From the IMG/VR virus record IMGVR_UViG_2541047719_000008: a stretch of DNA of 55,177 bases. One strand, 5' to 3'. Numbering within the stretch: the stretch's first letter is position 1; every line of letters begins with the position of its first letter. Below, piece after piece: positions 17,613 through 36,708 of the stretch. The notes beneath the pieces are model-generated. The model had not been told where the DNA came from and did not search any database. It saw only the letters and a list, made by a program, of their open reading frames with translations. Source of the DNA: a virus (Duplodnaviria > Heunggongvirae > Uroviricota > Caudoviricetes). The position numbers and the translations under genes are program-made.

Positions 17613-17617
17613 GCTTA

Positions 17618-19607: not shown

Positions 19608-20114
19608 ATGGCCTTTTTATTGAATAAAAGTGATATGGCCTCCTCCATCGGTATCTCTGTTCAGGCATTTGATAAATGGGGCGTTCCTCCTGTCGAGCGT
19701 CGGGGGAGGGAAGTTTTTTATGACGTTAAAACTGTACTGGAGATAGATCGCGAGCGGCGACAACACAATCATAGAACACCTGATGACGGGGGCGATCTGG
19801 AGGAAAGGCTGCTTCGGGCCAGAGCTGAACTGACAGAAGAACAGGCCGTAGCTCAAAAACTTAAAAATCAGGTAACCGAAGGTAAGCTCATCGATTCAGA
19901 CTTCTGCGTTTTCGCCCTCAGCAAGCTGGCGATGGCATTGTCCAGTACGCTTGATTCTATTCCGTTATCCATGCAGCGACAGTTCCCGGATTTAACGCCA
20001 CGTCATCTTGACCATCTGAAAACCCTTATTGCGAAGGGCGCAAATCAGTGTGCGCGGGCAGGGGATAAATTACCGGATTTGCTGGATGAATATATCAGAG
20101 CAACAACTGAATAA
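19608..20114 (+). CDS. nu1: Terminase small subunit Nu1
   Basis: N-terminal winged HTH plus LSKLAMALSSTLDSIPLSMQRQFPDL; clear lambda Nu1 homolog; start chosen at MAFLLNK with GGAGAGGAG RBS. Confidence 0.85.
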   Translation: MAFLLNKSDMASSIGISVQAFDKWGVPPVERRGREVFYDVKTVLEIDRERRQHNHRTPDDGGDLEERLLRARAELTEEQAVAQKLKNQVTEGKLIDSDFCVFALSKLAMALSSTLDSIPLSMQRQFPDLTPRHLDHLKTLIAKGANQCARAGDKLPDLLDEYIRATTE

Positions 20115-22014
20115 TCTGATGGCTGCCGTTTCGGTTGCGCTGCAGCCTCTGGTCAGGGTTGTACCGATGACGGCAGTTGAATGGGCTGACCAGTATTATT
20201 ATCTGCCGAAAGAATCCTCATACGGTGACGGCGAATGGAAAACGCTGCCGTTCCAGATCGCCATCATGAACAGTATGGGGAATGATCAGGTCCGCACTGT
20301 TAATCTGATTAAATCTGCCCGTGTTGGCTATACAAAGATGTTGCTGGGGGTGGTCGGGTATTTTATTGAGCATAAATCCCGAAACAGTCTGCTTTTTCAG
20401 CCCACGGATTCTGCCGCTGAAGATTTTATGAAGTCTCACGTGGAGACGACGATTAGGGACGTGCCATGCCTGAAAGACCTTTCCCCATGGCTGGGTCGTA
20501 AACATCGTGATAATACCCTCACGCTGAAACGCTTTTCATCGGGCGTCGGTTTCTGGTGCCTGGGCGGCGCTGCCGCCAAAAACTACCGTGAAAAATCCGT
20601 GGATGTGGTCTGCTATGACGAACTTTCCTCGTTCGAACCGGATGTTGAAAAAGAGGGTTCGCCAACCCTGCTGGGGGATAAACGTATTGAGGGCTCTGTA
20701 TGGCCAAAATCCATTCGCGGCTCGACGCCTAAAATCAAAGGCTCCTGCCAGATCGAAAAAGCCGCTAACGAGTCGGCACATTTCATGCGTTTTTATGTGC
20801 CCTGCCCGCACTGTGGGGAGGCGCAGTATCTGAAATTTGGCGATGAATCCACGCCTTTTGGCCTTAAATGGGAGAAGGACAGCCCCGAAAGCGTTTTCTA
20901 CCTCTGTGAACATCATGGCTGCGTGATCCATCAGTCTGAGCTTGACCAGAGCAACGGGCGGTGGATCTGTGAAAACACGGGCATGTGGACCCGTGACGGC
21001 CTGATGTTTTTCAGCGCCCGGGGTGATGAAATTCCGCCGCCGCGCTCCATCACTTTCCATATCTGGACGGCGTACAGTCCGTTCACCACCTGGGTACAGA
21101 TAGTCTATGACTGGCTGGATGCACTGAAAGATCCCAACGGCCTGAAAACCTTTGTGAACACCACGCTGGGCGAGACCTACGAAGAGGCCGTGGGCGAAAA
21201 ACTCGATCACCAGGTACTGATTGATAAGGTCGTGCATTACACGGCGGCGGTGCCAGCCCGGGTGGTTTATCTGACGGCGGGCATTGACTCGCAGCGAAAC
21301 CGTTTTGAGATGTATGTCTGGGGATGGGCTCCGGGAGAGGAAGCCTTTCTGGTGGATAAAATCATCATTATGGGACGTCCCGATGAGGAAGAGACGCTGT
21401 TACGTGTGGATGCGGCGATCAACAAAAAATACCGCCATGCAGACGGAACCGAAATGACCATTTCCCGTGTCTGCTGGGACATCGGGGGTATCGATGGCGA
21501 AATCGTTTATCAGAGGTCAAAAAAACACGGTGTTTTCCGGGTGCTGCCGGTAAAAGGCGCATCTGTCTATGGCAAGCCGGTGATCACCATGCCAAAAACC
21601 CGCAATCAGCGGGGCGTGTATCTGTGTGAAGTGGGGACAGACACCGCAAAAGAAATTCTCTATGCCCGTATGAAAGCCGAGCCCACGCCTGCGGATGAAT
21701 CCACGTCGTATGCCATCCGTTTTCCTGATGATCCGGAGATTTTTTCGCAGACAGAGGCGCAGCAACTGGTCGCGGAAGAGCTTGTGGAGAAGTGGGAAAA
21801 AGGAAAGATGCGTCTGCTGTGGGATAACAAAAAGCGGCGTAACGAAGCGCTGGACTGCTTGGTGTATGCCTACGCGGCATTACGTGTGTCCGTGCAACGC
21901 TGGCAGCTTGATCTGGCTGTACTGGCAAAATCCCGGGAAGAAGAGACGACCCGGCCAACCCTTAAAGAACTGGCAGCGAAGCTGTCCGGAGGAGTGAATG
22001 GTTACAGTCGCTGA
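20086..22014 (+). CDS. A: Terminase large subunit A
   Basis: MNISEQQ ... TAVEWADQYYYLPKESSYGDGEWKTLPFQ ... KRIEGSVWPKSIRGSTPK; lambda gpA homolog along its whole length; overlaps the Nu1 3' end as in lambda. Confidence 0.9.
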   Translation: MNISEQQLNNLMAAVSVALQPLVRVVPMTAVEWADQYYYLPKESSYGDGEWKTLPFQIAIMNSMGNDQVRTVNLIKSARVGYTKMLLGVVGYFIEHKSRNSLLFQPTDSAAEDFMKSHVETTIRDVPCLKDLSPWLGRKHRDNTLTLKRFSSGVGFWCLGGAAAKNYREKSVDVVCYDELSSFEPDVEKEGSPTLLGDKRIEGSVWPKSIRGSTPKIKGSCQIEKAANESAHFMRFYVPCPHCGEAQYLKFGDESTPFGLKWEKDSPESVFYLCEHHGCVIHQSELDQSNGRWICENTGMWTRDGLMFFSARGDEIPPPRSITFHIWTAYSPFTTWVQIVYDWLDALKDPNGLKTFVNTTLGETYEEAVGEKLDHQVLIDKVVHYTAAVPARVVYLTAGIDSQRNRFEMYVWGWAPGEEAFLVDKIIIMGRPDEEETLLRVDAAINKKYRHADGTEMTISRVCWDIGGIDGEIVYQRSKKHGVFRVLPVKGASVYGKPVITMPKTRNQRGVYLCEVGTDTAKEILYARMKAEPTPADESTSYAIRFPDDPEIFSQTEAQQLVAEELVEKWEKGKMRLLWDNKKRRNEALDCLVYAYAALRVSVQRWQLDLAVLAKSREEETTRPTLKELAAKLSGGVNGYSR

Positions 22015-25975: not shown

Positions 25976-26137
25976 TTAGCATGGCTTTCTGAGGCTTTCG
26001 TGTAGTTGCTGGTTTTTACACTTAATCTTTTGATAATAAAGAGTAAGTTTATCTGGCGCTTTCACTGGATTTTCCTCGTTATCTGTGTGTTGCAATCATC
26101 TCTGTATTGCAGCTTGTATTGCTTTTTGGGGCTAAAA

Positions 26138-27373
26138 ATGGCTGGCGAGAACAAACTGAGCGACAAAGCACTTAAAGGATATCTGGGGAAACCTAGAGAA
26201 AAGCAGATCACCATTGCTGATGGAAAGGGGCTTTCTATTCGTGTGAGTACCAAGGGGGCTGTGAGCTTTGTTTTCTTCTACAGGTTAGCAGGTGGCCGGG
26301 CTGCTCCGGTCTGGCTAACGTTGGGTAAATATCCTGATATGTCACTCAAACAGGCAAGGGAAAAGCGCGACGAGTGCCGTGGTTGGTTGGCTGACAAACG
26401 TGATCCGCGTATTCAGATTAAGATTCAGGCTGAAGAACGCTTAAAGCCGGTCACAGTGGAGGATGCACTAAATTACTGGTATGAAAATTACTGTAAGGTG
26501 CGTCGTAAAACTCATGCTGTAACGCTTGGCAGATTTCGAAAGCATATCTTTCCCTATATCGGTCATTTGCCCGTAAATGACACTCACCTATATGAATGGC
26601 TGGACTGTTTTGACCGAATTAAACGTAATGCACCAGTTATGGCGGCGTATGTTTTTTCTGACACTAAATTAGCTCTTCGTTTTTGTCGGGTACGCCAGTA
26701 CGCGACGTGTGATGCTTTAAAGGATTTGCGCATGAGTGATGTGGGGCAGATTGCAGGTAAGCGGGATCGGGTTCTGGATGAAGCCGAACTGGGCCAGCTC
26801 TGGAAGGCAATTTTTGTCGAGCCTGATTTAAAACTAATGTCTGAATACACGCGAAAAATGTTTGTGCTTTGTACAGTATTTGGATGTCGAATGAGTGAAG
26901 CCCGATTATCAGAATGGAGCGAATGGGATCTAGAAAGTTGGGTTTGGACTGTACCGAAAGATCACTCAAAAACTGGTGTTGAAATTGTCAGGCCAGTACC
27001 TGAAATTCTACGGCAGTGGGTAACGGATGTTCACGAAGAGACAAAACATACTGGTTATGTGCTGGGAAGTCTGCGAATTAGAGAAAGCGTAAGCAAGATT
27101 GGGGGGAAAATCGGTAAACGTTTGGGCCATGAAAAACAATGGTCACTACACGACCTTAGAAGAACGCTATCTACTCATCTAAGTGATCTCGGTGTTGAAT
27201 TTTATGTAGTAGAACAACTGTTAGGCCATGCGCTACCTGGCGTGGCAGGTGTTTACAACCGGAGTAAGTTTATGGCTAAAAAACTGGATGCTCTGGAACT
27301 CTGGACTACATATCTCAATAGCATCGCAGCTGCTGATTCAAAAGTGACAATCCTCAAACAAAAGGCTGGTTAG
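26138..27373 (+). CDS. int: Tyrosine integrase, P4-type
   Basis: N-terminal LSDKALKGYLGKP...GKGLSIRVS (P4-integrase N-domain) and C-terminal catalytic HDLRRT ... GH...Y motifs; start taken at MAGENK rather than the upstream ORF start at 26006. Confidence 0.85.
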   Translation: MAGENKLSDKALKGYLGKPREKQITIADGKGLSIRVSTKGAVSFVFFYRLAGGRAAPVWLTLGKYPDMSLKQAREKRDECRGWLADKRDPRIQIKIQAEERLKPVTVEDALNYWYENYCKVRRKTHAVTLGRFRKHIFPYIGHLPVNDTHLYEWLDCFDRIKRNAPVMAAYVFSDTKLALRFCRVRQYATCDALKDLRMSDVGQIAGKRDRVLDEAELGQLWKAIFVEPDLKLMSEYTRKMFVLCTVFGCRMSEARLSEWSEWDLESWVWTVPKDHSKTGVEIVRPVPEILRQWVTDVHEETKHTGYVLGSLRIRESVSKIGGKIGKRLGHEKQWSLHDLRRTLSTHLSDLGVEFYVVEQLLGHALPGVAGVYNRSKFMAKKLDALELWTTYLNSIAAADSKVTILKQKAG

Positions 27374-27374
27374 C

Positions 27375-27596
27375 ATGAAAAAAATGGCAATTGTTGATAA
27401 AAAGGGGCTGGAGTACATTCCTAACATTGACCGAATGATCCGTGAGAAAGAATGTCGGGAGCTAACCACTCTTGCGAACAGCACACGCTGGAAGCTTGAA
27501 AAGGAGGGGAAATTCCCCAAGCGAATCAAAATCGGATCTACGGCGGTGGCTTATAGACTCTCTGAGATTCAAGCTTGGATAAGAGGTGAATGGTAA
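27375..27596 (+). CDS. alpA: AlpA-family transcriptional regulator/excisionase
   Basis: 73 aa; REKECRELTTLANSTRWKLEKEGKFPKRIKIG...AYRLSEIQAWI matches the AlpA pattern; directly follows int. Confidence 0.75.
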   Translation: MKKMAIVDKKGLEYIPNIDRMIREKECRELTTLANSTRWKLEKEGKFPKRIKIGSTAVAYRLSEIQAWIRGEW

Positions 27597-27622
27597 GTTA
27601 GGGAGGTATTCCTCCCTATATC

Positions 27623-28306
27623 TTACAGGAAATTTTTTAAATCAGGGTTTTTTCCAAATGCGCTCTTATAATATACTGTTGCAATCTCGTTAAAAATAGT
27701 TTTTATATCATCGGTAACCACTATTGTTGCTACGCGCAAATCTTTTTGATATTCATTTAAATCTGGAGGGGTATAGTCCAATAGCGTTGATTTATCCAAG
27801 ATTAAATGTTCTAACATGGCATAGCGCTCAATCAATGTTTTATAAAAATGATATTGATTTTCACTGTTAGCATGTGCACAGTTTATTGCAAGTAAATACG
27901 TTATTTCATTATCTAGATGTGCACGGACAAGGCTTGTATAGGTTTTTTTACGATCTAGATCAAAGGGATGGTATCCAGCATTTTCATCAATGAACTTCAA
28001 TAGATGATATAATATTCTGAAGTAGCTTCCAAAAACAGCATCATGATTGTGCATCAGTGTATTAGTGTCTTTTAAAGAAACCAATCCATTCATCATTTTA
28101 TTAATTAACTCTGAGTAATTTGATTTTTTTCTAAGATCATTTAGAGCATTGTTATGTTGAGATAACATGAGAGAAAATGTTGATTCAAAAGATGATTGCT
28201 TTTTAGCAATTAATGCAACTAACACTGCTGTGCAAGTCCCGAGTGCCACGAAGAAATTTATAATGTTTGATGCAGTGAATACAGCATCGTCAGGAGTTGG
28301 AGTCAT
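27623..28306 (-). CDS. AT-rich cargo gene: hypothetical membrane-anchored protein, candidate abortive-infection/defence factor
   Basis: 227 aa on the opposite strand to int-alpA; one N-terminal hydrophobic helix; markedly AT-rich compared with its neighbours; no confident family assignment. Confidence 0.5.
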   Translation of the reverse strand: MTPTPDDAVFTASNIINFFVALGTCTAVLVALIAKKQSSFESTFSLMLSQHNNALNDLRKKSNYSELINKMMNGLVSLKDTNTLMHNHDAVFGSYFRILYHLLKFIDENAGYHPFDLDRKKTYTSLVRAHLDNEITYLLAINCAHANSENQYHFYKTLIERYAMLEHLILDKSTLLDYTPPDLNEYQKDLRVATIVVTDDIKTIFNEIATVYYKSAFGKNPDLKNFL

Positions 28307-28338
28307 TTGAATATCCTATTCAATAAAAATTAAAAAAA

Positions 28339-28533
28339 TTAGCCTTTAGGTTCTATACCTTTACGGCGAAGCTCAGCACGAACTAATTCTTTAATCCAAT
28401 TGGCCAAGCTCATTCCTTCCTGAGCTGCTGATTCAGCCATCTGTTCTTTGAGTTCAGGATTGATTCGGATCTGAAACGCAGGGGCTTTGCCGGCTCCTTT
28501 TGGCTGCTTATCTCTTTGAATTGTAGTTGACAT
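28339..28533 (-). CDS. Ribbon-helix-helix (CopG/Arc-type) DNA-binding protein
   Basis: 64 aa; APAFQIRINPELKEQMAESAAQEGMSLANWIKELVRAEL is a classic RHH beta-strand plus two helices. Confidence 0.65.
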   Translation of the reverse strand: MSTTIQRDKQPKGAGKAPAFQIRINPELKEQMAESAAQEGMSLANWIKELVRAELRRKGIEPKG

Positions 28534-28578
28534 GTGTGTACCTATTGCTTAGCATCAGTGTTGAATAGGTACACACAT
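28532..28578. promoter_or_regulatory. Perfect 15-bp inverted repeat (candidate operator) at the RHH gene start
   Basis: ATGTGTGTACCTATT ... 17 bp ... AATAGGTACACACAT, overlapping the RHH start codon, in the divergent intergenic region. Confidence 0.5.
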
Positions 28579-28669
28579 TAACATGATGTTATACCTATAA
28601 ACAACGCCCTAGGGTGCTCGCAACACACCTAGGGCGTCTAACCACAAACCGTTAACTGGAGTAACGACT

Positions 28670-29035
28670 ATGGCTGGAACACAGCATACCCAAACTCACC
28701 CTAAATTTATATACATCTTTCTGGCGCTACATCGCGATCGCATAGCAGATGGAGCAACTACGGTACATGTAGCCGCTGACACGCTGGTTGATGCGCGCAA
28801 GATGGTTAAGGAGATGGGCTATACTGCGGCTTTCTGGAAAGGGCGGGAAGAAAACACGCTGTTTATTCAGAAATGTGAAAACAATTTCATCTGGCGTTTT
28901 ATCGCCCTGAGTACGGCACAACCGCGCGTGATTACCATCGAGGCCACCAGCGAACAGGAAGCCCGCCAGCAATCCCCAACTGGCTGCGTGATGATATTCG
29001 CCGCCCGTATTCGTCAGGAGGTGTGCCATGAATGA
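28670..29035 (+). CDS. Hypothetical protein (first gene of the rightward operon of the element)
   Basis: 121-aa ORF; no motif recognised; true start may be internal. Confidence 0.4.
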   Translation: MAGTQHTQTHPKFIYIFLALHRDRIADGATTVHVAADTLVDARKMVKEMGYTAAFWKGREENTLFIQKCENNFIWRFIALSTAQPRVITIEATSEQEARQQSPTGCVMIFAARIRQEVCHE

Positions 29036-29252
29036 TCTTTATTTTAAAGTGCTGACACATGCTGAAAACGCGCTCGTTTGTGGCAAAAATATGCGAGAAA
29101 TCTTATCAACCTGGCTTGATGGGACAACAAATGCGGAACACGATGAACGGGATGCTAATTTAGCTGGAGCGTTAATTACGTTACTTGATCCTGTCATCAA
29201 AGAGCTGGATGAAGCTATAAAAATACACGACCAGAGCTATACCGGAGAATAA
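29028..29252 (+). CDS. Hypothetical protein
   Basis: 74-aa ORF overlapping the upstream stop. Confidence 0.4.
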   Translation: MNDLYFKVLTHAENALVCGKNMREILSTWLDGTTNAEHDERDANLAGALITLLDPVIKELDEAIKIHDQSYTGE

Positions 29253-29255
29253 AAA

Positions 29256-29543
29256 ATGAAAAATAAATTTTCTGGCTTTATTGCCAGCGGTCAAACTCAT
29301 TCAAAAATCAGCCTTGGGGATATTTTCAAAGATAGCTATGGCTATCGGGTAAAGATTATTTCGGTTGATGATCGTCGTGTCTCTTATTTGCGTGATGGTT
29401 ATGATTTTGAATGTGTTATGCCGCGTCAGCAGTTCGAAAGAGATTTCATTCTGGTAAAAAATTGCAAGACAGATAATCAGAGGCGTGCCGCAGGCTATAT
29501 CCGTAAAATTCGGGCAATGTTAGTTGCCGGAGGTAACAAATGA
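29256..29543 (+). CDS. Hypothetical protein
   Basis: 95-aa ORF immediately preceding and overlapping the primase start. Confidence 0.4.
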   Translation: MKNKFSGFIASGQTHSKISLGDIFKDSYGYRVKIISVDDRRVSYLRDGYDFECVMPRQQFERDFILVKNCKTDNQRRAAGYIRKIRAMLVAGGNK

Positions 29544-31360
29544 AACGTGCTCCGAACTTAAAATACCAACCGCGCGACAAAATGACGGAAGTCATCATTT
29601 TTGCTGGCAGTGATGCCTGGAGCCATGCAAAAGAATGGAATGAATGGGCAGGTAAGCATATTGCAGCAGATGATACACCACCAGTCATTCTGGGTACGGA
29701 ACAACTGGAAAACCTGGATGATATGCAAATTATCGATGAAGGCCGTCATTATGTGCGTGTTTATCGTGCCGGAAAGATTGCAGAGAAAAGTCTGACGAAG
29801 GTTGCGACATTACTTGCTATTGCAGGCGTAAAGGAAGCACGTTGTTACCGTAGCTTTGTTGATCGAGAGCCTGAAGACTGGACTCCGCGCCTTGTCGGCC
29901 TAAAAGCTGAAGCGGAGCATGGGGAAAGTCTGGTGATTGAACTGCCAGTGAAGAAGGCAGAGCGCAAAAATGACGAGCGTGCTTCATCTTTGGCGTTGAA
30001 TCAGATGGGGGCCAGCCAGCGCGGTGAAGTTCTCCTTGCACATTACGGCGGCGAACTGGCAATCAATGCCGACTCTGACACCGTTCATCATTACAACGGC
30101 GTTGTATGGGAGCCGGTTCAGGATAAAGAGTTACAGCGTGCTATGGCGCAGATTTTCATTGATGCGGAGATCAGCTATTCGCAGAACGCCATTAAATCGG
30201 CGGTAGATACCATGAAGTTAAGTTTGCCTGTAATGGGGAATACAGCCCGTAACCTGATTGGATTCAGTAACGGGGTATTTGATACCAGAACTGGTAATTT
30301 TCGGGAGCATAACAAAAACGACTGGTTGTTAATTGCCAGTGAATTACCTTTCAGCCCACCAGCAGAGGGGGAAACGCTGGCAACACATGCGCCGAATTTC
30401 TGGAAGTGGTTGCGCCGTTCGGTGGCTGAGAATGACCGCAAGGCAGATCGCGTACTGGCGGCATTATTCATGGTGCTGGCGAACCGGTACGACTGGCAGT
30501 TATTCATTGAGGTAACAGGGCCGGGGGGAAGTGGTAAAAGTGTGATGGCGGAGATTTGCACCATGCTGGCGGGTAAGGCGAATACAGTATCAGCAAGCAT
30601 GAAGGCGCTGGAAGATGCAAGGGAACGTGCGTTAGTGGTTGGCTTTTCGCTGATTATCATGCCGGATATGACCCGCTACGCTGGTGATGGGGCAGGGATT
30701 AAGGCCATTACAGGCGGTGACAAGGTGGCAATTGACCCGAAACACAAAGCCCCCTATTCAACGCGTATTCCGGCAGTAGTGCTGGCGGTTAACAATAACG
30801 CCATGTCATTCAGTGACCGCAGCGGGGGGATCTCACGTCGTCGGGTGATATTCAATTTTTCGGAAGTTGTACCGGAGAACGAACGCGATTCGATGCTGGC
30901 GGAAAAAATAGAAGGTGAGCTGGCGGTAGTGATTCGCCATCTGCTTACACGGTTTGCTGATCAGGACGAAGCCAGACGCCTGTTATATGAGCAGCAGAAA
31001 TCTGAAGAAGCACTGGCGATAAAGCGAGAGGGGGATTCGCTGGTGGACTTCTGCGGCTATCTCATGGCATCGGTAATGTGTGATGGCCTGTTAGTGGGTA
31101 ATGCTGAAATTGTGCCATTCAGCCCACGCAGGTATCTCTATCATGCCTATCTGGCTTATATGAGGGCACATGGGTTTGGTAAACCTGTAACACTGACGCG
31201 CTTCGGTAAAGATATGCCGGGGGCAATGGCGGAATATGGCAGGGAGTATATGAAACGGAAAACGAAGCACGGTTTGCGTTCAAACGTGACACTGACGGAG
31301 GAATCAGAAGACTGGATGCCATCATGTGTATCGGTCACTAATGACGATAGCAAAAATTAA
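29540..31360 (+). CDS. Primase/helicase replication initiator (P4-alpha / PICI Pri-Rep type)
   Basis: 606 aa with Walker A GPGGSGKS in the C-terminal half (D5/P4-primase-type NTPase); followed directly by an iteron array. Confidence 0.8.
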   Translation: MKRAPNLKYQPRDKMTEVIIFAGSDAWSHAKEWNEWAGKHIAADDTPPVILGTEQLENLDDMQIIDEGRHYVRVYRAGKIAEKSLTKVATLLAIAGVKEARCYRSFVDREPEDWTPRLVGLKAEAEHGESLVIELPVKKAERKNDERASSLALNQMGASQRGEVLLAHYGGELAINADSDTVHHYNGVVWEPVQDKELQRAMAQIFIDAEISYSQNAIKSAVDTMKLSLPVMGNTARNLIGFSNGVFDTRTGNFREHNKNDWLLIASELPFSPPAEGETLATHAPNFWKWLRRSVAENDRKADRVLAALFMVLANRYDWQLFIEVTGPGGSGKSVMAEICTMLAGKANTVSASMKALEDARERALVVGFSLIIMPDMTRYAGDGAGIKAITGGDKVAIDPKHKAPYSTRIPAVVLAVNNNAMSFSDRSGGISRRRVIFNFSEVVPENERDSMLAEKIEGELAVVIRHLLTRFADQDEARRLLYEQQKSEEALAIKREGDSLVDFCGYLMASVMCDGLLVGNAEIVPFSPRRYLYHAYLAYMRAHGFGKPVTLTRFGKDMPGAMAEYGREYMKRKTKHGLRSNVTLTEESEDWMPSCVSVTNDDSKN

Positions 31361-31373
31361 ACTTATGGAATAA

Positions 31374-31596
31374 CTGTTCACCACTGTTCACCCTGTCATA
31401 AATATCTTTTATATCAGTATATTATAGGGTGAACAGTTATTTATGAACTGTTCACCAAACTATTCACTGTTCACCTTTTTGATTGTTTATTGAGCTTCAA
31501 GGGTGAACAGTGGTGAACAGTTGGTGAATAGTTTTTGTGAAACTGTTCACCCATTAACATTATGAATTAAAAGAGAAAATATCAAAAGGTGAACAG
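31374..31596. repeat. Iteron array, candidate replication origin of the element
   Basis: At least nine copies of the 9-mer CTGTTCACC/GGTGAACAG in both orientations (e.g. 31374, 31384, 31428, 31448, 31467, 31502, 31512, 31543, 31588) in AT-rich non-coding DNA. Confidence 0.7.
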
Positions 31597-31647
31597 GTGA
31601 AGGGTTAAAACGCAAAAATTTTAATTTACTGCTGTGAGATAAAGCCT

Positions 31648-31893
31648 ATGACAGCGAAGCACACAAAAAAATCACAATCGCACGCCCTTGATTTGACGGA
31701 ACACTGGTTAAGGGTGTCGATAAAAATCATCGACCGCAACGCCGGGGAAGGATACGCGAAAGCACATCCCGAACTGATTAGCGCATTCATGACAACGGCG
31801 GCTGCAAACTTTGCCACTCTGACCGAACGGGAGATTGCTGAAGCGGAGGAAGTGGCAACAATCAATATTAAGTCCGGAGAGCAGGCAGCATGA
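31648..31893 (+). CDS. Hypothetical protein
   Basis: 81-aa ORF between the origin and ssb. Confidence 0.4.
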   Translation: MTAKHTKKSQSHALDLTEHWLRVSIKIIDRNAGEGYAKAHPELISAFMTTAAANFATLTEREIAEAEEVATINIKSGEQAA

Positions 31894-32339
31894 CGGCGCA
31901 AATATCAGTTTACGGGCGGTTGGTGGACGACCCGCAGACAAAACAGACCAGCAAGGGCACCCCCATGACGCTGGCGCGTATGGCGGTATCACTGCCCTGC
32001 AGTCAGTCGGATGACGGTCAGGCGACGATGTGGTTATCTGTCCTGGCGTTTGGCAGACAAGCCGACGCGCTGGCAAAGCATCACAAAGGCGAACTCCTGA
32101 GCGTGGCGGGTAATATGCAGGTGAGCCAGTGGACTGGACAGAACGGTGAAACGCGGCAGGGCTGGCAGGTTATCGCAGACAGCGTAATCAGTGCGCGAAC
32201 GGTGCGACCGGGCGGCAAAAAAGGTCAACAGGGTCAGGCTACTGACGCACTGAACAGAGCAAAACAACAGGCAGATCAGCAAGGAAGCCATCCACCAGTG
32301 GGAGATAATGAACAATGGGGAGATGATATTCCGTTTTAA
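31890..32339 (+). CDS. ssb: Single-stranded DNA-binding protein
   Basis: OB-fold-like N-terminus, Gly/Gln-rich linker and the canonical acidic tip DDIPF at the C-terminus. Confidence 0.75.
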   Translation: MTAQISVYGRLVDDPQTKQTSKGTPMTLARMAVSLPCSQSDDGQATMWLSVLAFGRQADALAKHHKGELLSVAGNMQVSQWTGQNGETRQGWQVIADSVISARTVRPGGKKGQQGQATDALNRAKQQADQQGSHPPVGDNEQWGDDIPF

Positions 32340-32550
32340 ATATTGCCAATAAAAAAGGCCGGAAAAAAATAAATTTTCCGGCATGCTACATAAATCCCGA
32401 CCAAAGGGAGTGAAGATATTAACACTAATTATCCGCGCTGAAGTTGTTATCCCAAAACTTTATACAACATTGCACTCGGTTGCATGTATTCGCATGACAA
32501 ATATCGGTGATAGCATATATCCACAATTATTTTTAATGAATGCAAAGAGG

Positions 32551-33597
32551 ATGCGTATGGTTGATTTATATTCGCCTACCCAGCTTGTACAGGTGGTTAA
32601 TGCTGTAGATGTACAAAAACAACTAAATGCGTTGTTTACCAGTTTGTTTTTTACTCGCTCGGTAATGTTTGAATCGCGCGATATTATTCTTGATACAATC
32701 GACGATCCAAATATCCCAATTGCAGCGTTTTGTTCTCCTATGGTGGGTAGTAAAGTTTCACGTGACGAAGGGTACGAATCAAAAACAATTCGTCCAGGCT
32801 ATATGAAGCCGAAAAGCAGCATTGATCCAAATAAGTTAGCTGTGCGCCCTGTTGGTGTATCACCTGAGCAATACAATGCTTTTGGAGCGCGTAATATTAA
32901 AGTTAAACAGGCGATTGTAAATCAGGCTAAAGCTATTCGTGCACGTATTGAATGGCTTGCCGTTCAGGCAATCACAACGGGGAAAAATATCATTGAGGGC
33001 GATGGTATTGAACGTTATGAGCTGGACTGGAATATTAAACCACAAAATATCATCACTCAGTCTGGCGGTGCTGAGTGGTCAGGTAAGGATAAAGAAACTT
33101 TTGATCCAAATGATGATATTGAGAGCTACGCAGAATTTAGTGAGGGCGTCACTAATATTATCATTATGGGCGGTAATGTATGGAAGAAATACCGTTCATT
33201 CAGAGCGATAAAAGAGGCTCTGGATACCCGTCGTGGTTCTAATTCCGAACTGGAAACGGCCCTTAAAGACCTTGGTGATTCGGTGAGTTTTAAAGGGTAT
33301 ATGGGCGATGTTGCGATTGTTGTTTACAGCGGGCGTTATACCGACGAGGACGGAACAGAAAAACATTTCCTTGATCCTGATTTGATGGTGCTTGGCAATA
33401 CGGCTCTTCAGGGGATTGTCGCCTATGGCGGTATTCAGGATCCGGAGCTAATCCGAATGGGGCTGACTAAAGCCGAACTTGCACCGAAAAACTATATTGT
33501 GCCTGGTGATCCGGCTATTGAATATGTGCAGACACATTCAGCACCACAGCCAATACCGGCCCGCATCAATCGTTTTGTTACCGTTCGCATTGGCTAA
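32551..33597 (+). CDS. Major capsid protein, lambda E-like paralog encoded by the inserted element
   Basis: Full-length homology to the split prophage E gene (RPGYMKPKS vs RPGYVKPKH; LDTRRGSNSELETALKDLG; YSGRYTDEDG; GDPAIEY). Start at MRMVDLY with AAAGAGG RBS; the tool ORF starts at 32383. Confidence 0.8.
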   Translation: MRMVDLYSPTQLVQVVNAVDVQKQLNALFTSLFFTRSVMFESRDIILDTIDDPNIPIAAFCSPMVGSKVSRDEGYESKTIRPGYMKPKSSIDPNKLAVRPVGVSPEQYNAFGARNIKVKQAIVNQAKAIRARIEWLAVQAITTGKNIIEGDGIERYELDWNIKPQNIITQSGGAEWSGKDKETFDPNDDIESYAEFSEGVTNIIIMGGNVWKKYRSFRAIKEALDTRRGSNSELETALKDLGDSVSFKGYMGDVAIVVYSGRYTDEDGTEKHFLDPDLMVLGNTALQGIVAYGGIQDPELIRMGLTKAELAPKNYIVPGDPAIEYVQTHSAPQPIPARINRFVTVRIG

Positions 33598-33606
33598 GGG
33601 GGAGCA

Positions 33607-33948
33607 ATGGCTACTCATTACACTGAACTCATGGCTGGCACTGAAGCACTGGTGACTACGCTGGGGATATTTTCAGCTAATAAAGGGGTAATTCCTGCAT
33701 TTACGCCACTGATGCAGGAAGATGCAACAGGTGCACTGGTAGTATGGGATGGTTCGAGCGTAGGTAAAGCGGTTTATGTTTCCGCTGTACAAATCGACAC
33801 CGCGAAAAAAACACAGGCTCAGGTCTATAAGACAGGTGTCTTAAATGTTGATGCTCTGAACTGGCCTGAGTCTGTTAAAGAACTGTCAGTAAAGGTTGCA
33901 GCGTTTGTTGGCTCAGGTATTTCTGTTCAGCCGCTGGCTCGTGTGTAA
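33607..33948 (+). CDS. Head decoration protein, lambda D-like paralog encoded by the inserted element
   Basis: 113 aa sharing TPLM, VVWDG, YK(T/S)G, NWPESV and AF(V/A)GS blocks with the prophage D protein. Confidence 0.75.
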   Translation: MATHYTELMAGTEALVTTLGIFSANKGVIPAFTPLMQEDATGALVVWDGSSVGKAVYVSAVQIDTAKKTQAQVYKTGVLNVDALNWPESVKELSVKVAAFVGSGISVQPLARV

Positions 33949-33959
33949 AGGGGGATACA

Positions 33960-34343
33960 ATGCAGAATGATTACAATGACCTTAAGCCAATTGCCGAAAT
34001 GATGTACCCGAATCAAGCTGTAGAGGAATTAAAAGCTATCGCTGACAAAATGTGTTTAAGCGAGCGCCTTGTTGATATGAATCAGGTGATGGAAATTACA
34101 ACCCTGAGTCGTCGTACACTGCTAAACCTTGAGGCTAGTGGAGAGTTCCCGGAGCGTGTGCAGGTTACGGAAGGGCGTAAGGCCTGGTATTTAAGTGAAG
34201 TGATCGACTGGATAAATAATATTCCTCGCGCTTCTGAATATTGCCGCGTACCTGTCCCAAAAAAGCCAGATGCGGCGCTATGCCTCAAGATTGAGCGTGT
34301 ACGCCGCAATGCACGGGATGGTCGCTATAAGCTGATTGGTTGA
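33960..34343 (+). CDS. AlpA-like HTH DNA-binding protein
   Basis: MEITTLSRRTLLNLEASGEFPERVQVTEGRKAWYLSEVIDWI matches the AlpA-type HTH; precedes the element's cos site. Confidence 0.5.
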   Translation: MQNDYNDLKPIAEMMYPNQAVEELKAIADKMCLSERLVDMNQVMEITTLSRRTLLNLEASGEFPERVQVTEGRKAWYLSEVIDWINNIPRASEYCRVPVPKKPDAALCLKIERVRRNARDGRYKLIG

Positions 34344-34369
34344 TGAAATTAGGGCCTGCTCTGGCTGGC

Positions 34370-34434
34370 GGGTCCTTTCCGGCGATCTGACAGGCTACGG
34401 GGCGTCAGGCGCGCGGGTTTTCGCTATTTATGAG
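34370..34434. other. Second, element-borne cos site with variant cosN (GGGCGTCAGGCG)
   Basis: GGGTCCTTTCCGGCGATCTGACAGGCTACG + GGGCGTCAGGCG + CGCGGGTTTTCGCTATTTATGAG aligns to the prophage cos at 19350-19416, with five substitutions in the 12-nt cohesive-end segment. Confidence 0.7.
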
Positions 34435-34535
34435 CATTTTAAGGGGACTGGTGGTGGTTTTGTTGTTCGCTATATCTGTATGAATAATAAGAGAAAAATA
34501 CAATCAATACACCAACCTGAAACAGTAATTAAGTT

Positions 34536-35087
34536 GTGGTATCAATGAAATTACACCTGATGAACAAAAAAAACATGGCAAAAAGTTGCCGTGTAAGCGC
34601 CACTGCGTTCGATAAGTGGGGAGTGATTCCCGTCGAGCGTAAGGGCCGTGAGGCGTTCTATGATGTTGCCAGTGTAATAGATAATCGGGTTAACAATGCA
34701 ATCAGCCAGATTACAAACGAAACGGGCGATATTGATGACGATGAACTTTTACGCGTCAGGATCAGATTACTGACAGCACAGGCAGAGGCGCAGGAGCTTA
34801 AAAACGAGCGCGAACGCGGCGACGTTATTGATACAGAGTTTTGTATGTATGTTCTTTCCAAACTGGCGAGTCAGATTTCATCTATCATGGACAGCCTGCC
34901 GCTTACCATGCAAAGGCGCTTCCCACAGATGACTCCGGCTATGCTGGATGGACTTAAAAAGGAAGTGGCTAAAGCCTGTAATGCCAGTGCCGGCGTTGCT
35001 GACAACCTCCCACAGATACTGGCTGATTATCTGATGGAAAGTACAGGAAACGTACCGGATAAGTTGCAGCTGAATAAGGATAAGTAA
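34536..35087 (+). CDS. Terminase small subunit, Nu1-like paralog encoded by the inserted element
   Basis: SATAFDKWGVIPVERKGREAFYDV ... YVLSKLASQISSIMDSLPLTMQRRFPQMTP parallels the prophage Nu1 (SVQAFDKWGVPPVERRGREVFYDV ... ALSKLAMALSSTLDSIPLSMQRQFPDLTP). Confidence 0.8.
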   Translation: MVSMKLHLMNKKNMAKSCRVSATAFDKWGVIPVERKGREAFYDVASVIDNRVNNAISQITNETGDIDDDELLRVRIRLLTAQAEAQELKNERERGDVIDTEFCMYVLSKLASQISSIMDSLPLTMQRRFPQMTPAMLDGLKKEVAKACNASAGVADNLPQILADYLMESTGNVPDKLQLNKDK

Positions 35088-35098
35088 CGTAGTACGCT

Positions 35099-35374
35099 AT
35101 GACTGAATCCGAACTACTGAAAGTAATCTGCCATGCTGGTGGAGTCAGCCACCAGCATGACGAACAGGCCACGCAGCCGGGCAGTGTCACCGCTGAAAAT
35201 TACGCTCGTGTGGTTGCTGAGGTTATGTGGCGTGACGGTATAGAACTGAACGGACAGGATTGCTTAGTCATCCGCACCAAAGTGCTGGCTATACTGGCAG
35301 CTAGGCGGAGGCAGGGACAACGCCAGAACGTTGCATCGTACCAGTGGAAGAAGCCTGACAGACTGCGGCGATAA
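35099..35374 (+). CDS. Hypothetical protein
   Basis: 91-aa ORF after the Nu1-like gene; no motif recognised. Confidence 0.35.
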   Translation: MTESELLKVICHAGGVSHQHDEQATQPGSVTAENYARVVAEVMWRDGIELNGQDCLVIRTKVLAILAARRRQGQRQNVASYQWKKPDRLRR

Positions 35375-35776
35375 CTCTTTGATTTTCTCGACGGCCCCAA
35401 AATGGGCCTTACCATAGCCAGCTAATAAATGAGCAAGCCTCAAAAGTGAGGTTTGTGGCCGTTTGGCCTATTCATATGCTAACTCGTTGATATTCCTGAC
35501 GACGCAAATTTACGCCTTGTGGCTGGTAGTCGAATTGCAAATTTGCAACTCGACTATGAAACTACAGGTAGTTTGGGTAGTAAAAGCAACACACTGATTT
35601 TGGGGCTTCTTCGCGATACCTAATATTATGGTATCGGTGGAAGAGATATCGTTTCTCATAGGTTAGCACCGAGGGCGGAGTTCCGCCCTCATCGAAAAAT
35701 TGCTTACGAGTCGTCAAAATAAATTAATCGACTGAGTATAATGATTAACTAATTGCTCGTGTTACTTCATTATACG

Positions 35777-36538
35777 TTATTTCCCATCTTTAAGGTTTAA
35801 CCAAGTGTTAATTAAAAAAAGAGCCATTGAGCCTGATAAATTTACTGCAAGTTCGGCATGCCTTGGGGATGGCTTAATTGATGAGCTGTTCGTTCCATGT
35901 GCATCACCGAGTTTATTACGAAGAGTACCTAACCCATTTACAACTGCAGAACAACCGCCGAGAATTTGTTTGAAGATATTTTCAGTATGTTGGTCGGCAG
36001 ATAGGTTAAGTTCTTTTGAAAGAGTTTTATAAAGCTCTGACATTTCAATATTTTTATTATTATACTGAATGCCCATATCATCAAGAATGTGTTTGCAAAC
36101 TGTTTCAAGAAGTGTTCTTGCGGAGGTTATCGCACCATCCGGATCTGTATGGCGCCGTTCAAGTGCTTTTATCCAAACGGCGTGGACTCCATCCTCGTTA
36201 AACTTTCTTAATACATCAGATATGTCTTCATCCGCTGGAGCTTTATTTTTCCCTTCTAGATAGTCCAGCATCGGCTGAAATGCCTTATAAATCAAATCTC
36301 TCCGGGGGGCATACTTTTCAGTCTTTTTTATAAATCCCCAAAATTCTTTTAGTGAGCGATTAGTTCTCACAAACTCTGGTAATAGCTGATGTAAAGGAGG
36401 ATTTTGTAAGAAATATGTTCTTAGAAGCAAATAATCATTATTAGCTTCATCCTGGGCTCCTGTAGCTCTTGCAATTAGTATGTTTTGAAGCGCTACTGCG
36501 CGCTCTAGGTCATTTTGAAGGGTATCTATAATATTCAT
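35777..36538 (-). CDS. AT-rich cargo gene: Abi_C-like (abortive infection C-terminal domain) protein
   Basis: 253 aa; C-terminal GTLRNKLGDAHG resembles the conserved R-N-x-x-G-x-A-H-G signature of Abi_C domains; opposite strand and AT-rich. Confidence 0.5.
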   Translation of the reverse strand: MNIIDTLQNDLERAVALQNILIARATGAQDEANNDYLLLRTYFLQNPPLHQLLPEFVRTNRSLKEFWGFIKKTEKYAPRRDLIYKAFQPMLDYLEGKNKAPADEDISDVLRKFNEDGVHAVWIKALERRHTDPDGAITSARTLLETVCKHILDDMGIQYNNKNIEMSELYKTLSKELNLSADQHTENIFKQILGGCSAVVNGLGTLRNKLGDAHGTNSSSIKPSPRHAELAVNLSGSMALFLINTWLNLKDGK

Positions 36539-36697
36539 AACAAATCTTTATTCACTTCATTTGTGGGTTGATAATTGAATGGTTTGTACATTGATTTCTG
36601 TGTATTGCAGTGTGTATTGCAACATAGCCATTCAGGTAGAGATTATGCTCTATTTTTCCTCTTATATCATTCACATACTTACACCATTGACTCATGT

Positions 36698-36708
36698 AGC
36701 CGAAACAC
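36698..36708. other. Right junction core repeat (attR-like) AGCCGAAACAC
   Basis: Imperfect copy of the left junction 11-mer, at the exact point where the E reading frame resumes. Confidence 0.55.

What the first reader, a model, noticed from the sequence alone, without database searches (positions are those of the whole stretch)
34370..35087. Element-borne cos site with altered cosN plus its own Nu1-like small terminase
A second copy of the cosQ-cosN-cosB region lies inside the element, ~15 kb from the prophage cos. The flanks are conserved (GGGTCCTTTCCGGCGATC.GACAGG.TACG and CGCGG.TTTTCGCTATTTATGAG) but the 12-nt cohesive-end segment is GGGCGTCAGGCG instead of GGGCGGCGACCT. Directly downstream is a Nu1-like gene whose HTH region differs from the prophage Nu1. 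A private cos and small terminase could redirect the helper large terminase to package element DNA, and the different cohesive ends would keep element and helper genomes from annealing to each other.
Basis: partly seen in the sequence, partly recalled or inferred. Interest (0 to 1): 0.82.

Follow-up and report, generated by a model that had tools for sequence, protein, structure and literature searches.

The report
Satellite's own cos site and small terminase
A 10.7-kb phage satellite sitting inside its helper prophage's capsid gene carries its own DNA-packaging start site and its own small terminase; this type of satellite is already known, so the finding adds an uncharacterised packaging variant and an unusual sticky-end sequence that turns out to be a natural polymorphism.

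Summary
A second lambda-type cos lies at 34370-34434, 15,020 bp downstream of the prophage cos (19350-19414). Its flanks are almost identical to the prophage's, but 5 of the 12 cohesive-end bases differ (GGGCGTCAGGCG vs GGGCGGCGACCT). A full-length Nu1-family small terminase gene follows at 34545-35087.

The carrier is a helper-embedded PICI (window 25976-36698) of the published '11capE' type, inserted in lambda-like gene E. That paper said the element lacks terS; this variant has one.

The satellite terminase (TerS_sat) and its own cosB (R-like sites at bp 51-59 and 110-118) form a conserved cassette under purifying selection. The cassette is found in hundreds of E. coli PICIs, in the slot where EcCICFT073 carries rpp. 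It most likely directs the helper large terminase to satellite DNA.

The altered 12-mer is not tied to this cassette:
- The cassette occurs with four different 12-mers.
- The variant 12-mer occurs in TerS-less sister satellites and in a lambda-like phage head module.
- Terminases about 99% identical serve three different 12-mers.

However, in 8 of 8 gene-E composites checked, the helper has the canonical 12-mer and the satellite the variant. This is unexplained.

Verdict: a new variant of a known kind, of moderate interest.

The parts
25976..36698 (+). Helper-embedded PICI (10,723 bp) inserted in the prophage major capsid gene E. Gene order: int, alpA, AbiC-like (-), Icd-like, DUF4222, primase, SSB, E-like capsid, D-like decoration, AlpA-like HTH, cos, TerS, PHROG-1561 ORF, Abi_C (-).
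   Evidence: RefSeq annotation of the 100% identical locus in E. coli K56-43-un shows a split capsid gene. The att core AGCCGAA(G/A)CAC lies at 25965-25975 and 36688-36698. The element matches the published HE-PICI class (PMC10111431).
34370..34399 (+). Satellite cosQ-like heptamer GGGTCCT (34370-34376) plus the spacer up to the left nick position (…CTACG).
   Evidence: 27 of 30 bases are identical to helper 19350-19379, and similarity begins exactly here. GGGTCCTTTCC is invariant in all related loci that matched the pattern; the O157:H7 PICI differs here.
34400..34411 (+). Presumed 12-nt cohesive-end segment of the satellite cosN, GGGCGTCAGGCG (variant allele).
   Evidence: It aligns base for base with the helper/lambda GGGCGGCGACCT and differs at 5 of 12 positions. 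It is the majority allele in this satellite lineage: 49 of 59 scorable sequences. Cleavage at these positions is inferred, not shown.
34412..34433 (+). Conserved right flank of cosN (bp 13-34, CGCGGGTTTTCGCTATTTATGA). cosB cassettes are exchanged just to the right of it.
   Evidence: Similarity breakpoints between sister elements fall at bp 33-41.
34434..34544 (+). Satellite cosB. R3-like GGTGGTGGT at 34450-34458 (invariant block 34449-34464). Inverted R2-like GGTTGGTGT at 34509-34517 (invariant block 34510-34521). Weaker R1-like AGTTGTGGT at 34532-34540.
   Evidence: Phylogenetic footprint across 15 distinct satellite sequences. The positions (bp 51-59 and 110-118) are identical to the helper's GGTTGTTGT sites. 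No IHF consensus was found between R3 and R2.
34545..35087 (+). Satellite small terminase (TerS_sat), Nu1 family, 180 aa (175 aa if translation starts at 34560).
   Evidence: Pfam PF07471 1e-24 and PHROG 57 9e-53. 48% identical to the helper Nu1 and 35% to lambda Nu1, collinear through the C-terminal region. dN/dS 0.06-0.32. RefSeq names it 'terminase small subunit' WP_000766228.1.
35099..35374 (+). 91-aa ORF of unknown function (PHROG 1561) that accompanies the Rpp/TerS slot in PICIs.
   Evidence: 55% identical to the ORF downstream of rppA in EcCICFT073. Found downstream of cos/TerS in related loci.
33960..34343 (+). 127-aa AlpA-like helix-turn-helix protein immediately upstream of cos.
   Evidence: Pfam PF05930 7.5e-9 and PHROG 2790. 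PDB 8c3t AlpA 2e-9. Conserved (94-100% identity in all but one locus, 79% in L036) upstream of cos in nearly all loci of this satellite lineage.
19350..19607 (+). Helper prophage cos: cosQ, canonical cosN 19380-19391 (GGGCGGCGACCT), and cosB with GGTTGTTGT at 19430 (+), 19489 (-) and 19567 (+).
   Evidence: All four GGTTGTTGT copies in the window lie at 19145-19575, against 0.41 expected.
19608..20114 (+). Helper small terminase (Nu1 family, 168 aa).
   Evidence: Pfam PF07471 1e-20 and PHROG 57/1790.
20086..22014 (+). Helper large terminase (gpA-like), the enzyme presumed to cut and package satellite DNA.
   Evidence: RefSeq annotation. 66% identical to lambda-type TerL. The satellite encodes no TerL.

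Best explanation
The region is the packaging module of a helper-embedded PICI. It consists of a lambda-type cosQ-cosN, a satellite-specific cosB, and a satellite-specific full-length Nu1-family small terminase (TerS_sat).

Proposed mechanism:
1. After the composite is induced and the satellite has excised and replicated, TerS_sat binds the R3/R2-like sites of the satellite cosB through its winged-HTH domain.
2. It brings the helper's large terminase to the adjacent cosN.
3. The large terminase nicks at the conserved TACG|G…|CGCG junctions, producing 12-nt ends GGGCGTCAGGCG, and translocates satellite concatemer DNA into helper-built proheads.
4. Packaging ends at a downstream satellite cos, using the conserved cosQ. 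By arithmetic this is probably four units, about 43 kb, per lambda-size head.

The cassette is functionally the cos-system counterpart of the SaPI small terminase, and it occupies the slot where EcCICFT073 carries Rpp. The variant 12-mer is one of several natural cosN alleles that lambda-type large terminases tolerate, and it is independent of the TerS/cosB cassette.

Shown: sequence anatomy, family membership, conservation, selection, module distribution, allele distribution. Inferred: DNA binding, TerL recruitment, cleavage positions, number of units packaged.
For: Anatomy and family.

Private cosB:
- Satellite cosB has invariant R3/R2 blocks across 15 distinct sequences while the surrounding bases vary.
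- The blocks sit at exactly the helper's positions (bp 51-59, 110-118), but read GGTGGTGGT/GGTTGGTGT instead of GGTTGTTGT.
- The recognition helix co-varies: SATAFDKW in all satellites, SVQAFDKW in phages.

Selection: dN/dS is 0.06-0.32, with 0-4 non-synonymous against up to 20 synonymous changes in residues 1-50.

Independence from the helper's small terminase:
- The identical protein WP_000766228.1 is embedded in helpers with lambda-type Nu1/cosB.
- No TerL is encoded in the satellite.
- No deposited phage has a TerS more than 47% identical.
- Every relative at 86% identity or more lies in a satellite context.

Distribution and position:
- The cassette occurs in chromosomal PICIs (O157:H7) and in a portal-inserted HE-PICI.
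- TerS_sat-type C-terminal DNA is present in 613 of 5,426 complete E. coli genomes.
- It is positionally equivalent to rppA, with the same flanking genes and replacement boundaries about 37 bp right of cosN.

Tolerance of cosN alleles:
- Phage contigs with 98.8-99.5% identical TerL and about 98% identical Nu1 carry three different 12-mers.
- L004 is a complete cos-Nu1-A-W-B-C-D-E module carrying the variant.
- The cassette occurs with four different 12-mers.
- Published view: TerL endonuclease is not highly sequence-specific and is positioned by TerS-cosB (PMC9026076).
Against: - No experiment exists for this element. The authors of the HE-PICI paper could not detect virions from their composite.
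- The C-terminal, presumed TerL-binding, part of TerS_sat is only 42% identical to the helper Nu1 and 29% to lambda Nu1.
- The same allele sits in helpers whose TerLs are 66% identical overall and roughly half identical over the first 48 residues (my count on the alignment). Direct binding to both is therefore unproven.
- No IHF consensus lies between R3 and R2 of the satellite cosB, and R1 is poorly conserved.
- No promoter-like site lies nearby, so expression must depend on read-through transcription.
- One relative (L139) is frameshifted.
- Sister satellites manage without any TerS.
Confidence: 0.68

Rival explanations
1. Rpp-like bridging or poisoning. TerS_sat does not bind TerL itself. 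Instead it forms mixed oligomers with the helper's own small terminase, whose C-terminus supplies TerL. The mixed complex recognises the satellite cosB and no longer recognises the helper cosB, so one protein both redirects packaging and interferes with the helper.
For: - TerS_sat occupies the rpp slot.
- Its central oligomerisation region is the part best conserved with both lambda Nu1 (57%) and the helper Nu1 (52%), while the C-terminal part is the least conserved (29-42%) and the most variable among satellite alleles.
- The same allele lives in helpers with two different TerL/Nu1 types.
- Rpp is thought to derive from TerS (PMC6739421).
Against: - Unlike Rpps (139-154 aa, no TerL-binding tail; PMC9026076), TerS_sat keeps the whole C-terminal region, including the LPxxLxxY motif shared with lambda and helper Nu1.
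- There is no detectable sequence relationship to RppA (blastp E = 6.4; hhalign E = 0.067), and a Nu1 profile does not hit the Rpp chain in the PDB.
Confidence: 0.25
2. The altered 12-mer is an adaptive, element-private cohesive end that works together with the private TerS to keep satellite and helper DNA from joining.
For: - In 8 of 8 gene-E composites the helper has GGGCGGCGACCT and the satellite GGGCGTCAGGCG.
- The variant is the majority allele in this satellite lineage (49 of 59 scorable sequences), but appeared in only about 3 of 120 loci in a generic cos scan.
- The 12-mer stays constant while at least 9 left-flank and 9 right-flank haplotypes reassort around it.
Against: - The TerS/cosB cassette occurs with four 12-mers, including the canonical one.
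- The variant occurs in TerS-less satellites and in a lambda-like phage.
- A portal-embedded HE-PICI shares the canonical 12-mer with its helper.
- The satellite backbone is about 99% identical among carriers, so the high frequency may reflect common descent.
- No mechanism by which end-joining between helper and satellite would cost fitness has been shown.
Confidence: 0.12
3. Mismatched resident. The satellite's cos is matched to other lambda-like phages that carry the same 12-mer (L004-type). The resident prophage's terminase cuts it poorly, so the resident is a landing site rather than the packaging helper.
For: Phage-context cos sites with GGGCGTCAGGCG exist (L004, L039, L055). Virions could not be detected from the published composite.
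Against: - L004's TerL is 98.8-99.5% identical to TerLs that serve the canonical and GGGCGGAAGGCG ends, so there is no sign of a specialised nuclease.
- All eight gene-E-embedded satellites examined would then be mismatched.
Confidence: 0.1
4. Inert relic. cos and Nu1 were captured together from a phage ('late gene capture') and no longer function.
For: HE-PICIs and PICIs do capture helper late genes. One frameshifted copy exists. TerS-less sisters exist.
Against: - Strong purifying selection acts on the gene.
- The R3/R2 sites and recognition helix are invariant.
- The cassette is carried by hundreds of genomes on several backbones.
- The clade has satellite-specific features: a 13-aa C-terminal tail and an AT-for-VQ change in the recognition helix.
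Confidence: 0.05

Closest known systems
HE-PICI '11capE' in prophage 50icd of E. coli NRG857c (Tommasini, Mageeney & Williams 2023, PMC10111431)
   Same: Same class and the same integration site in the lambda-like capsid gene E. Same co-orientation with the late operon, same size (about 11 kb) and same zone order. It carries its own E-like capsid gene and a cos-like region where other PICIs have cos.
   Different: The paper states that 11capE lacks terS and shares 258 bp at 90% identity with the helper cos. That fits the lambda-cosB, TerS-less sister type seen in EC-10; I did not fetch NRG857c itself. The window element has a different cosB (about 75% identical to its helper's over about 150 nt) and a full-length TerS. 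The paper does not discuss the 12-mer.
EcCICFT073 Rpp system (Fillol-Salom 2018 and 2019, PMC6092414 and PMC6739421; Murialdo & Feiss 2022, PMC9026076)
   Same: Same gene order: capsid, decoration, small ORF, cos, [specificity gene], PHROG-1561 ORF. cosQ/cosN resemble the helper's while cosB is private. The logic is the same: helper terminase is redirected to satellite cos.
   Different: - The slot holds a 175-180 aa Nu1-family TerS with the C-terminal region, not a 139-154 aa Rpp without it.
- There is no detectable sequence similarity to RppA.
- cosB has R3 plus an inverted R2 (and a weak R1) rather than a single proposed R3.
- There is one cos instead of two.
- EcCICFT073 cos1 has the canonical 12-mer.
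SaPI small terminase TerS_S (for example SaPI1/SaPIbov1), from my own knowledge
   Same: A satellite-encoded TerS homologue pairs with the helper's TerL to package satellite DNA preferentially.
   Different: Those elements use pac/headful packaging, come from Gram-positive hosts, belong to an unrelated TerS family, and have a separate Ppi protein to block the helper TerS.
Lambda versus phage 21 packaging specificity (cognate Nu1-cosB pairs)
   Same: The architecture is the same (R3, R2 inverted, R1, downstream of a shared cosN). Specificity is set by a few recognition-helix residues and R-site bases.
   Different: Here one member of the pair is an orphan TerS on a satellite without its own TerL.
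cos mimicry by P4, SaPIbov5 and the TerS-less sister HE-PICIs
   Same: They carry a helper-like cosQ/cosN.
   Different: Those elements rely on the helper's TerS recognising a copied cosB. The window element has its own cosB and TerS.

Membership tests
Phage Nu1-family small terminase (Pfam PF07471) | Sequence match above the curated threshold | tested here: met
   87.5 bits against a cut-off of 30; PHROG 57 E = 9e-53 over the full length.
Phage Nu1-family small terminase (Pfam PF07471) | Three-part layout: N-terminal winged-HTH, central oligomerisation region, C-terminal TerL-binding region | tested here: met
   Collinear with lambda Nu1 residues 3-180 and helper Nu1 residues 5-167, including the LPxxLxxY C-terminal motif. 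This was tested by sequence only; no structure was computed.
Phage Nu1-family small terminase (Pfam PF07471) | Gene lies just downstream of cos and just upstream of its partner large terminase gene | tested here: not met
   It is downstream of cos, but no TerL follows it. The next genes are a 91-aa ORF and an Abi gene. It is an orphan TerS.
Lambda-type cos site | cosQ heptamer and its spacing to cosN | tested here: met
   GGGTCCT lies 30 nt before the 12-mer, the same as in the helper.
Lambda-type cos site | cosN: conserved nick-flanking bases and a 12-bp staggered-cut segment | tested here: inconclusive
   The flanks TACG and CGCGG are conserved and positions 1-5 of the 12-mer are identical, but positions 6, 8, 9, 10 and 12 differ. 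Natural alleles exist with near-identical terminases. Cleavage itself cannot be tested here.
Lambda-type cos site | cosB with R3 - IHF site - inverted R2 - R1 | tested here: inconclusive
   R3 and inverted R2 are present, conserved, and at the helper's positions. R1 is weak. No IHF consensus with one mismatch or fewer was found.
Helper-embedded PICI (HE-PICI) | Tyrosine integrase plus AlpA, primase/ori and late zone; inserted in and co-oriented with a helper late gene; short att identity block | tested here: met
   Gene E is split at 25975/36699, with the core AGCCGAA(G/A)CAC.
Rpp (redirecting phage packaging) proteins | 139-154 aa, TerS-like wHTH, no TerL-binding C-terminus, sequence related to RppA/B/C | tested here: not met
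   The protein is 175-180 aa and has the C-terminal region. blastp against CFT073 RppA gives E = 6.4, hhalign gives E = 0.067, and the Rpp chain is not hit in the PDB.
Rpp (redirecting phage packaging) proteins | Forms a heterodimer with the helper TerS | not testable with these tools
   Needs two-hybrid, pull-down or complex-structure prediction.
SaPI-type satellite small terminase (works-like comparison) | Satellite TerS uses the helper TerL to package satellite DNA | not testable with these tools
   Inferred only from the absence of a satellite TerL and the conservation of the cassette.

The most novel reading that the evidence does not exclude
The gene-E-embedded satellite lineage may actively maintain a cohesive-end sequence different from that of every helper it resides in (8 of 8 composites). 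Cohesive-end alleles would then act as compatibility groups that prevent helper-satellite end joining or hybrid chromosomes.

For example, a molecule started at the satellite cos and terminated at the next helper cos of an unexcised composite would have non-complementary ends.

Together with this, an orphan full-length TerS able to work with two divergent large terminases would be a third route to cos redirection, distinct from cos mimicry and from Rpp.
Probability: 0.15. Interest if true: 0.65.

Novelty: new variant of a known kind. Interest (0 to 1): 0.5.

Why it matters
Four ways for satellites to get packaged have been characterised:
- copying the helper cos;
- the SaPI pac-type TerS together with Ppi;
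- Rpp;
- the fully autonomous cf-PICI machinery.

A lambda-system satellite with its own full-length Nu1-type TerS and matched cosB, sitting in the slot where Rpp sits, would be an uncharacterised fifth arrangement. It is common: TerS_sat-type genes occur in about 11% of complete E. coli genomes, including O157:H7.

Sister elements that differ only in this cassette (Rpp, TerS or nothing) form a natural swap series. They could be used to ask where Rpp came from and how TerL is positioned at cosN, both of which Fillol-Salom 2019 and Murialdo & Feiss 2022 left open.

The analysis also corrects the impression that gene-E HE-PICIs lack terS. It shows that the 12-base lambda cohesive end is polymorphic in nature under near-identical terminases.

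Tried and rejected
- PDB sequence search with TerS_sat alone gave no hit at E <= 1. A Nu1 profile hits only lambda TerS chains, and lambda Nu1 was in the profile, so this is not independent evidence.
- Searches of GTDB species representatives with TerS_sat peptides and with a satellite-cosB DNA pattern found nothing. Host range beyond E. coli therefore remains unknown.
- A literature search for the variant 12-mers returned only unrelated papers. The HE-PICI paper's supplements contain no mention of Nu1, terS or cos.
- I looked for co-variation between TerS_sat C-terminal alleles and helper TerL type. The window allele occurs with both TerL types and another allele occurs with lambda-type TerL, so there is no signal either way.
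- I looked for a second cos, as EcCICFT073 has; there is none.
- I looked for an IHF site in the satellite cosB (none) and for a local promoter (none).
- I considered that the 127-aa HTH protein upstream of cos might be the Rpp equivalent. It is AlpA-like and has no similarity to the corresponding CFT073 ORF.
- I did not run structure prediction or the large protein-database searches, because family assignment was already unambiguous.
Full report
**1. Observation**

The window holds two lambda-type cos sites on the same strand, 15,020 bp apart: 19350-19414 and 34370-34434. A 65-nt pattern from cosQ to TATGAG, with the 12-mer left free, matches only these two places, where shuffles give none. 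In a pairwise alignment, similarity starts exactly at GGGTCCT and continues about 150 nt into cosB. The 12-nt segment at the position of the lambda cohesive end is GGGCGGCGACCT in the prophage and GGGCGTCAGGCG in the element. That is 5 of 12 mismatches against 4 of 53 in the flanks (Fisher p = 0.008).

The ORF that follows (34545 or 34560 to 35087) is a full-length Nu1-family small terminase. It matches Pfam PF07471 at 87.5 bits and PHROG 57 at 9e-53. It is 48% identical to the prophage Nu1 and 35% identical to lambda Nu1, collinear to the C-terminus.

**2. What carries it**

The locus is 100% identical to E. coli K56-43-un, where RefSeq annotates a lambda-like major capsid gene split by an inserted element. 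That element encodes an integrase, AlpA, two Abi proteins, an Icd-like protein, a primase, SSB, its own E-like capsid and D-like decoration proteins, an AlpA-like HTH protein, 'terminase small subunit' and a small ORF.

The att core AGCCGAA(G/A)CAC lies at 25965-25975 and 36688-36698, giving an element of 10,723 bp.

This is the helper-embedded PICI (HE-PICI) class described by Tommasini, Mageeney and Williams (PMC10111431), specifically their most frequent site in gene E. Those authors wrote that their prototype, 11capE, lacks terS and shares 258 bp at 90% identity with its helper's cos.

**3. Sister elements show a cassette structure**

Many E. coli genomes carry elements 99% identical to this one up to window positions ~34432-34440, just right of cosN, and then diverge. 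In strain EC-10 the sister element has the same variant 12-mer, followed by a lambda-type cosB (R3/I1/R2/R1-like) and no TerS gene at all. That matches the published description of 11capE; I did not fetch NRG857c itself.

Across IMG/VR and E. coli genomes, the same satellite backbone carries at least three kinds of module to the right of cosN:
- a lambda-type cosB with no TerS;
- a lambda-type cosB with a Nu1 homologue about 72% identical to lambda's;
- the window-type cosB with TerS_sat.

The window-type cassette also occurs on other backbones:
- a chromosomal PICI next to phoQ in O157:H7 (TerS 88% identical);
- an HE-PICI inserted in the portal gene of a lambda-type prophage in EC93 (TerS 83% identical).

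I compared the O157:H7 PICI with EcCICFT073, which sits at the same chromosomal site. The two are 94% identical up to about 37 bp right of cosN. A 792-bp cosB+terS segment then replaces the 664-bp cosB+rppA segment, and similarity resumes afterwards. The ORF downstream of rppA is 55% identical to window 35099-35374. TerS_sat therefore occupies the Rpp slot of the experimentally studied E. coli PICIs.

**4. Is the cassette functional?**

Among 13 distinct full-length alleles, dN/dS is 0.06-0.32. Residues 1-50 show 0-4 non-synonymous against up to 20 synonymous differences.

The recognition helix reads SATAFDKW in every satellite and SVQAFDKW in every related phage Nu1.

In 15 distinct satellite cosB sequences, two blocks are invariant while their surroundings vary: TGGTGGTGGTTTTGTT (bp 50-65 from the cohesive-end start) and CACCAACCTGAA (inverted). 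The R1-like site is variable.

The cores GGTGGTGGT (bp 51-59) and inverted GGTTGGTGT (bp 110-118) lie at exactly the positions of the helper's GGTTGTTGT sites. The first of them coincides with lambda R3 (bp 50-65; PMC9026076). All four GGTTGTTGT copies in the window lie at 19145-19575, three of them in the helper cosB, against 0.41 expected by chance.

No deposited phage has a TerS more than 47% identical to TerS_sat. Every relative at 86% identity or more in IMG/VR sits in a satellite context with no TerL downstream.

DNA of TerS_sat-type C-termini is present in 613 of 5,426 complete E. coli genomes. The window allele region is in 121 genomes.

Together these results indicate a working, satellite-specific DNA-recognition module.

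**5. How it probably works**

The satellite has no large terminase, so cutting and translocation must come from the helper's gpA-like enzyme (20086-22014).

The simplest model is the SaPI logic transposed to a cos system. TerS_sat binds the satellite's R3/R2 sites, recruits helper TerL, and TerL nicks the adjacent cosN. Packaging ends at a later satellite cos using the conserved cosQ. Four 10.7-kb units (42.9 kb) would fit a lambda-size head. This is arithmetic plus the published behaviour of EcCICFT073, not a result.

One difficulty is that the identical TerS_sat protein is embedded both in the window-type helper and in lambda-type helpers. Their TerLs are 66% identical overall and roughly half identical over the N-terminal 48 residues (my count on the alignment). 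The C-terminal segment of TerS_sat is only 29-42% identical to either cognate Nu1 and is the most variable part among satellite alleles. The central oligomerisation region, by contrast, is 52-57% identical to both.

This leaves room for an Rpp-like alternative in which TerS_sat forms mixed oligomers with the helper's Nu1, which then supplies TerL.

TerS_sat is nevertheless not an Rpp:
- It is 175-180 aa, against 139-154 aa for Rpps.
- It keeps the C-terminal region.
- It has no detectable similarity to RppA.

**6. The altered cohesive end**

An exact scan of IMG/VR found 53 loci with the variant.

Pooled with the earlier loci, the tally showed several natural alleles:

| 12-mer | Loci |
|---|---|
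| GGGCGGCGACCT (canonical) | 93 |
| GGGCGGAAGGCG | 7 |
| GGGCGGCGTCCG | 7 |
| GGGCGGCAGCGT | 7 |
| Four other 12-mers | 1 each |

The variant GGGCGTCAGGCG appeared in only about 3 of the 120 generic-scan loci. All but one allele keep GGGCG at positions 1-5 and vary to the right; the exception begins GGGCT.

Phage contigs whose TerL is 98.8-99.5% identical and whose Nu1 is about 98% identical carry three different 12-mers. One of them, L004, has the satellite's variant in front of a complete Nu1-A-W-B-C-D-E module. This fits the published view that the TerL nuclease is not highly sequence-specific and is positioned by TerS-cosB.

I then sampled the satellite lineage without bias, anchoring on the end of the upstream HTH gene. 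This gave 49 variant, 7 canonical, 2 GGGCGGAAGGCG and 1 GGGCGGCTGACG. The window-type cosB/TerS cassette occurs with all four alleles.

The 12-mer and the TerS cassette therefore assort independently, and the variant is not private to the element.

**7. What remains odd**

In all eight gene-E composites examined, the helper has the canonical 12-mer and the satellite the variant. The eight are this window, EC-10, WP8-S17-ESBL-12, STEC711, KMi006, E203449, 09A19CPO009 and GPEC709. They include satellites whose cosB is a near copy of the helper's.

Within the variant carriers, at least 9 left-flank and 9 right-flank haplotypes reassort around an unchanged 12-mer.

This could reflect common descent of a recently expanded backbone, or recombination at cos restricted to partners with matching ends. 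It could also reflect selection for ends that cannot anneal to the helper's.

The portal-embedded HE-PICI of EC93 shares the canonical 12-mer with its helper, so mismatch is not a general rule for embedded satellites. I rate an adaptive role as possible but unlikely (about 0.15).

**8. Novelty**

Several things were already known:
- The element class and its cos-like region are published.
- PGAP already names the gene 'terminase small subunit'.
- Fillol-Salom et al. 2018 noted terS homologues in some Gram-negative PICIs.

What appears undescribed in the searchable literature:
- Gene-E HE-PICIs exist in TerS-bearing and TerS-less forms.
- A full-length Nu1-type TerS with its own R sites fills the Rpp slot in many E. 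coli PICIs.
- The lambda cohesive-end sequence is polymorphic under near-identical terminases.

The list of characterised packaging strategies in Alqurainy et al. does not include a cos-type satellite TerS. I therefore classify this as a new variant of a known kind, of moderate interest.

**9. Caveats**

- IMG/VR loci are mostly prophage predictions from E. coli isolates and are not independent samples.
- Allele counts are inflated for the variant by the targeted scan.
- Searches of GTDB representatives found no relatives, so host range is unknown.
- No binding, cleavage or transfer has been measured for this element.

Noticed in passing
window 35099-35374: A 91-aa ORF (PHROG 1561, no Pfam hit) follows the TerS. 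It is 55% identical to the ORF downstream of rppA in EcCICFT073, and it is present downstream of cos in both TerS-bearing and TerS-less relatives. It may be a conserved but uncharacterised partner of the packaging slot.
   Followed up: partly
L187 1-4200 (CFT073) vs L191 5900-10400 (O157:H7): Sister PICIs at the same chromosomal site differ by a clean replacement of cosB+rppA (664 bp) with cosB+terS (792 bp). The replacement starts about 37 bp right of cosN and ends at an inverted second cos (cos2). The specificity cassette is thus bracketed by two inverted cos copies in those elements; the window element has only one cos.
   Followed up: partly
L187 ~2615-2627 vs window 34450-34458 and 34509-34517: EcCICFT073 cos1 has ACACCACCACCAC at bp 53-65, the proposed Rpp R3 position. 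The TerS-type cosB has GGTGGTGGT (the reverse complement of ACCACCACC) at bp 51-59 and ACACCAACC at bp 110-118. This may hint at a shared origin of the Rpp-type and TerS-type cosB.
   Followed up: no
window 31363-31600: Iterated inverted motif GGTGAACAGTT…AACTGTTCACC just downstream of the primase gene, where PICI replication origins are reported.
   Followed up: no
window 26099-26122 and 36597-36620: A 24-nt doubled motif (TCTSTGTATTGCAG..TGTATTGC) lies just inside both ends of the element. It is probably the doubled att-flanking motif that the HE-PICI paper mentions as unique to these elements.
   Followed up: no
window 27623-28306 (-) and 35777-36538 (-): Two abortive-infection genes (putAbiC PF16872; Abi_C PF14355) lie on the opposite strand. 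At the first of these positions, sister elements carry TIR or DUF2971 genes instead; near the right end they carry DUF2971, HEPN/DUF262 or other genes. These look like variable defence-cargo positions.
   Followed up: partly
L192 (E. coli EC93) 7107-19607: An HE-PICI is inserted in the portal gene B of a lambda-type prophage. It carries a TerS_sat allele (83% identical) and the satellite cosB, but the canonical 12-mer, the same as its helper.
   Followed up: partly
window 19145-19153: A fourth copy of the helper R-site nonamer GGTTGTTGT lies 235 nt upstream of the helper cosN, outside cosB.
   Followed up: no
window 34459-34508: There is no IHF consensus (one mismatch or fewer) between R3 and R2 of the satellite cosB, whereas the helper has two candidates in the same interval. 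The satellite interval is AT-rich and partly conserved (TATGAAT).
   Followed up: partly
TerS_sat residues 163-175 (window 35046-35084): All satellite TerS alleles end in a 13-aa tail (GNVPDKLQLNKDK and variants) that is absent from lambda and helper Nu1. In one relative (L139) the gene is frameshifted to 151 aa.
   Followed up: no
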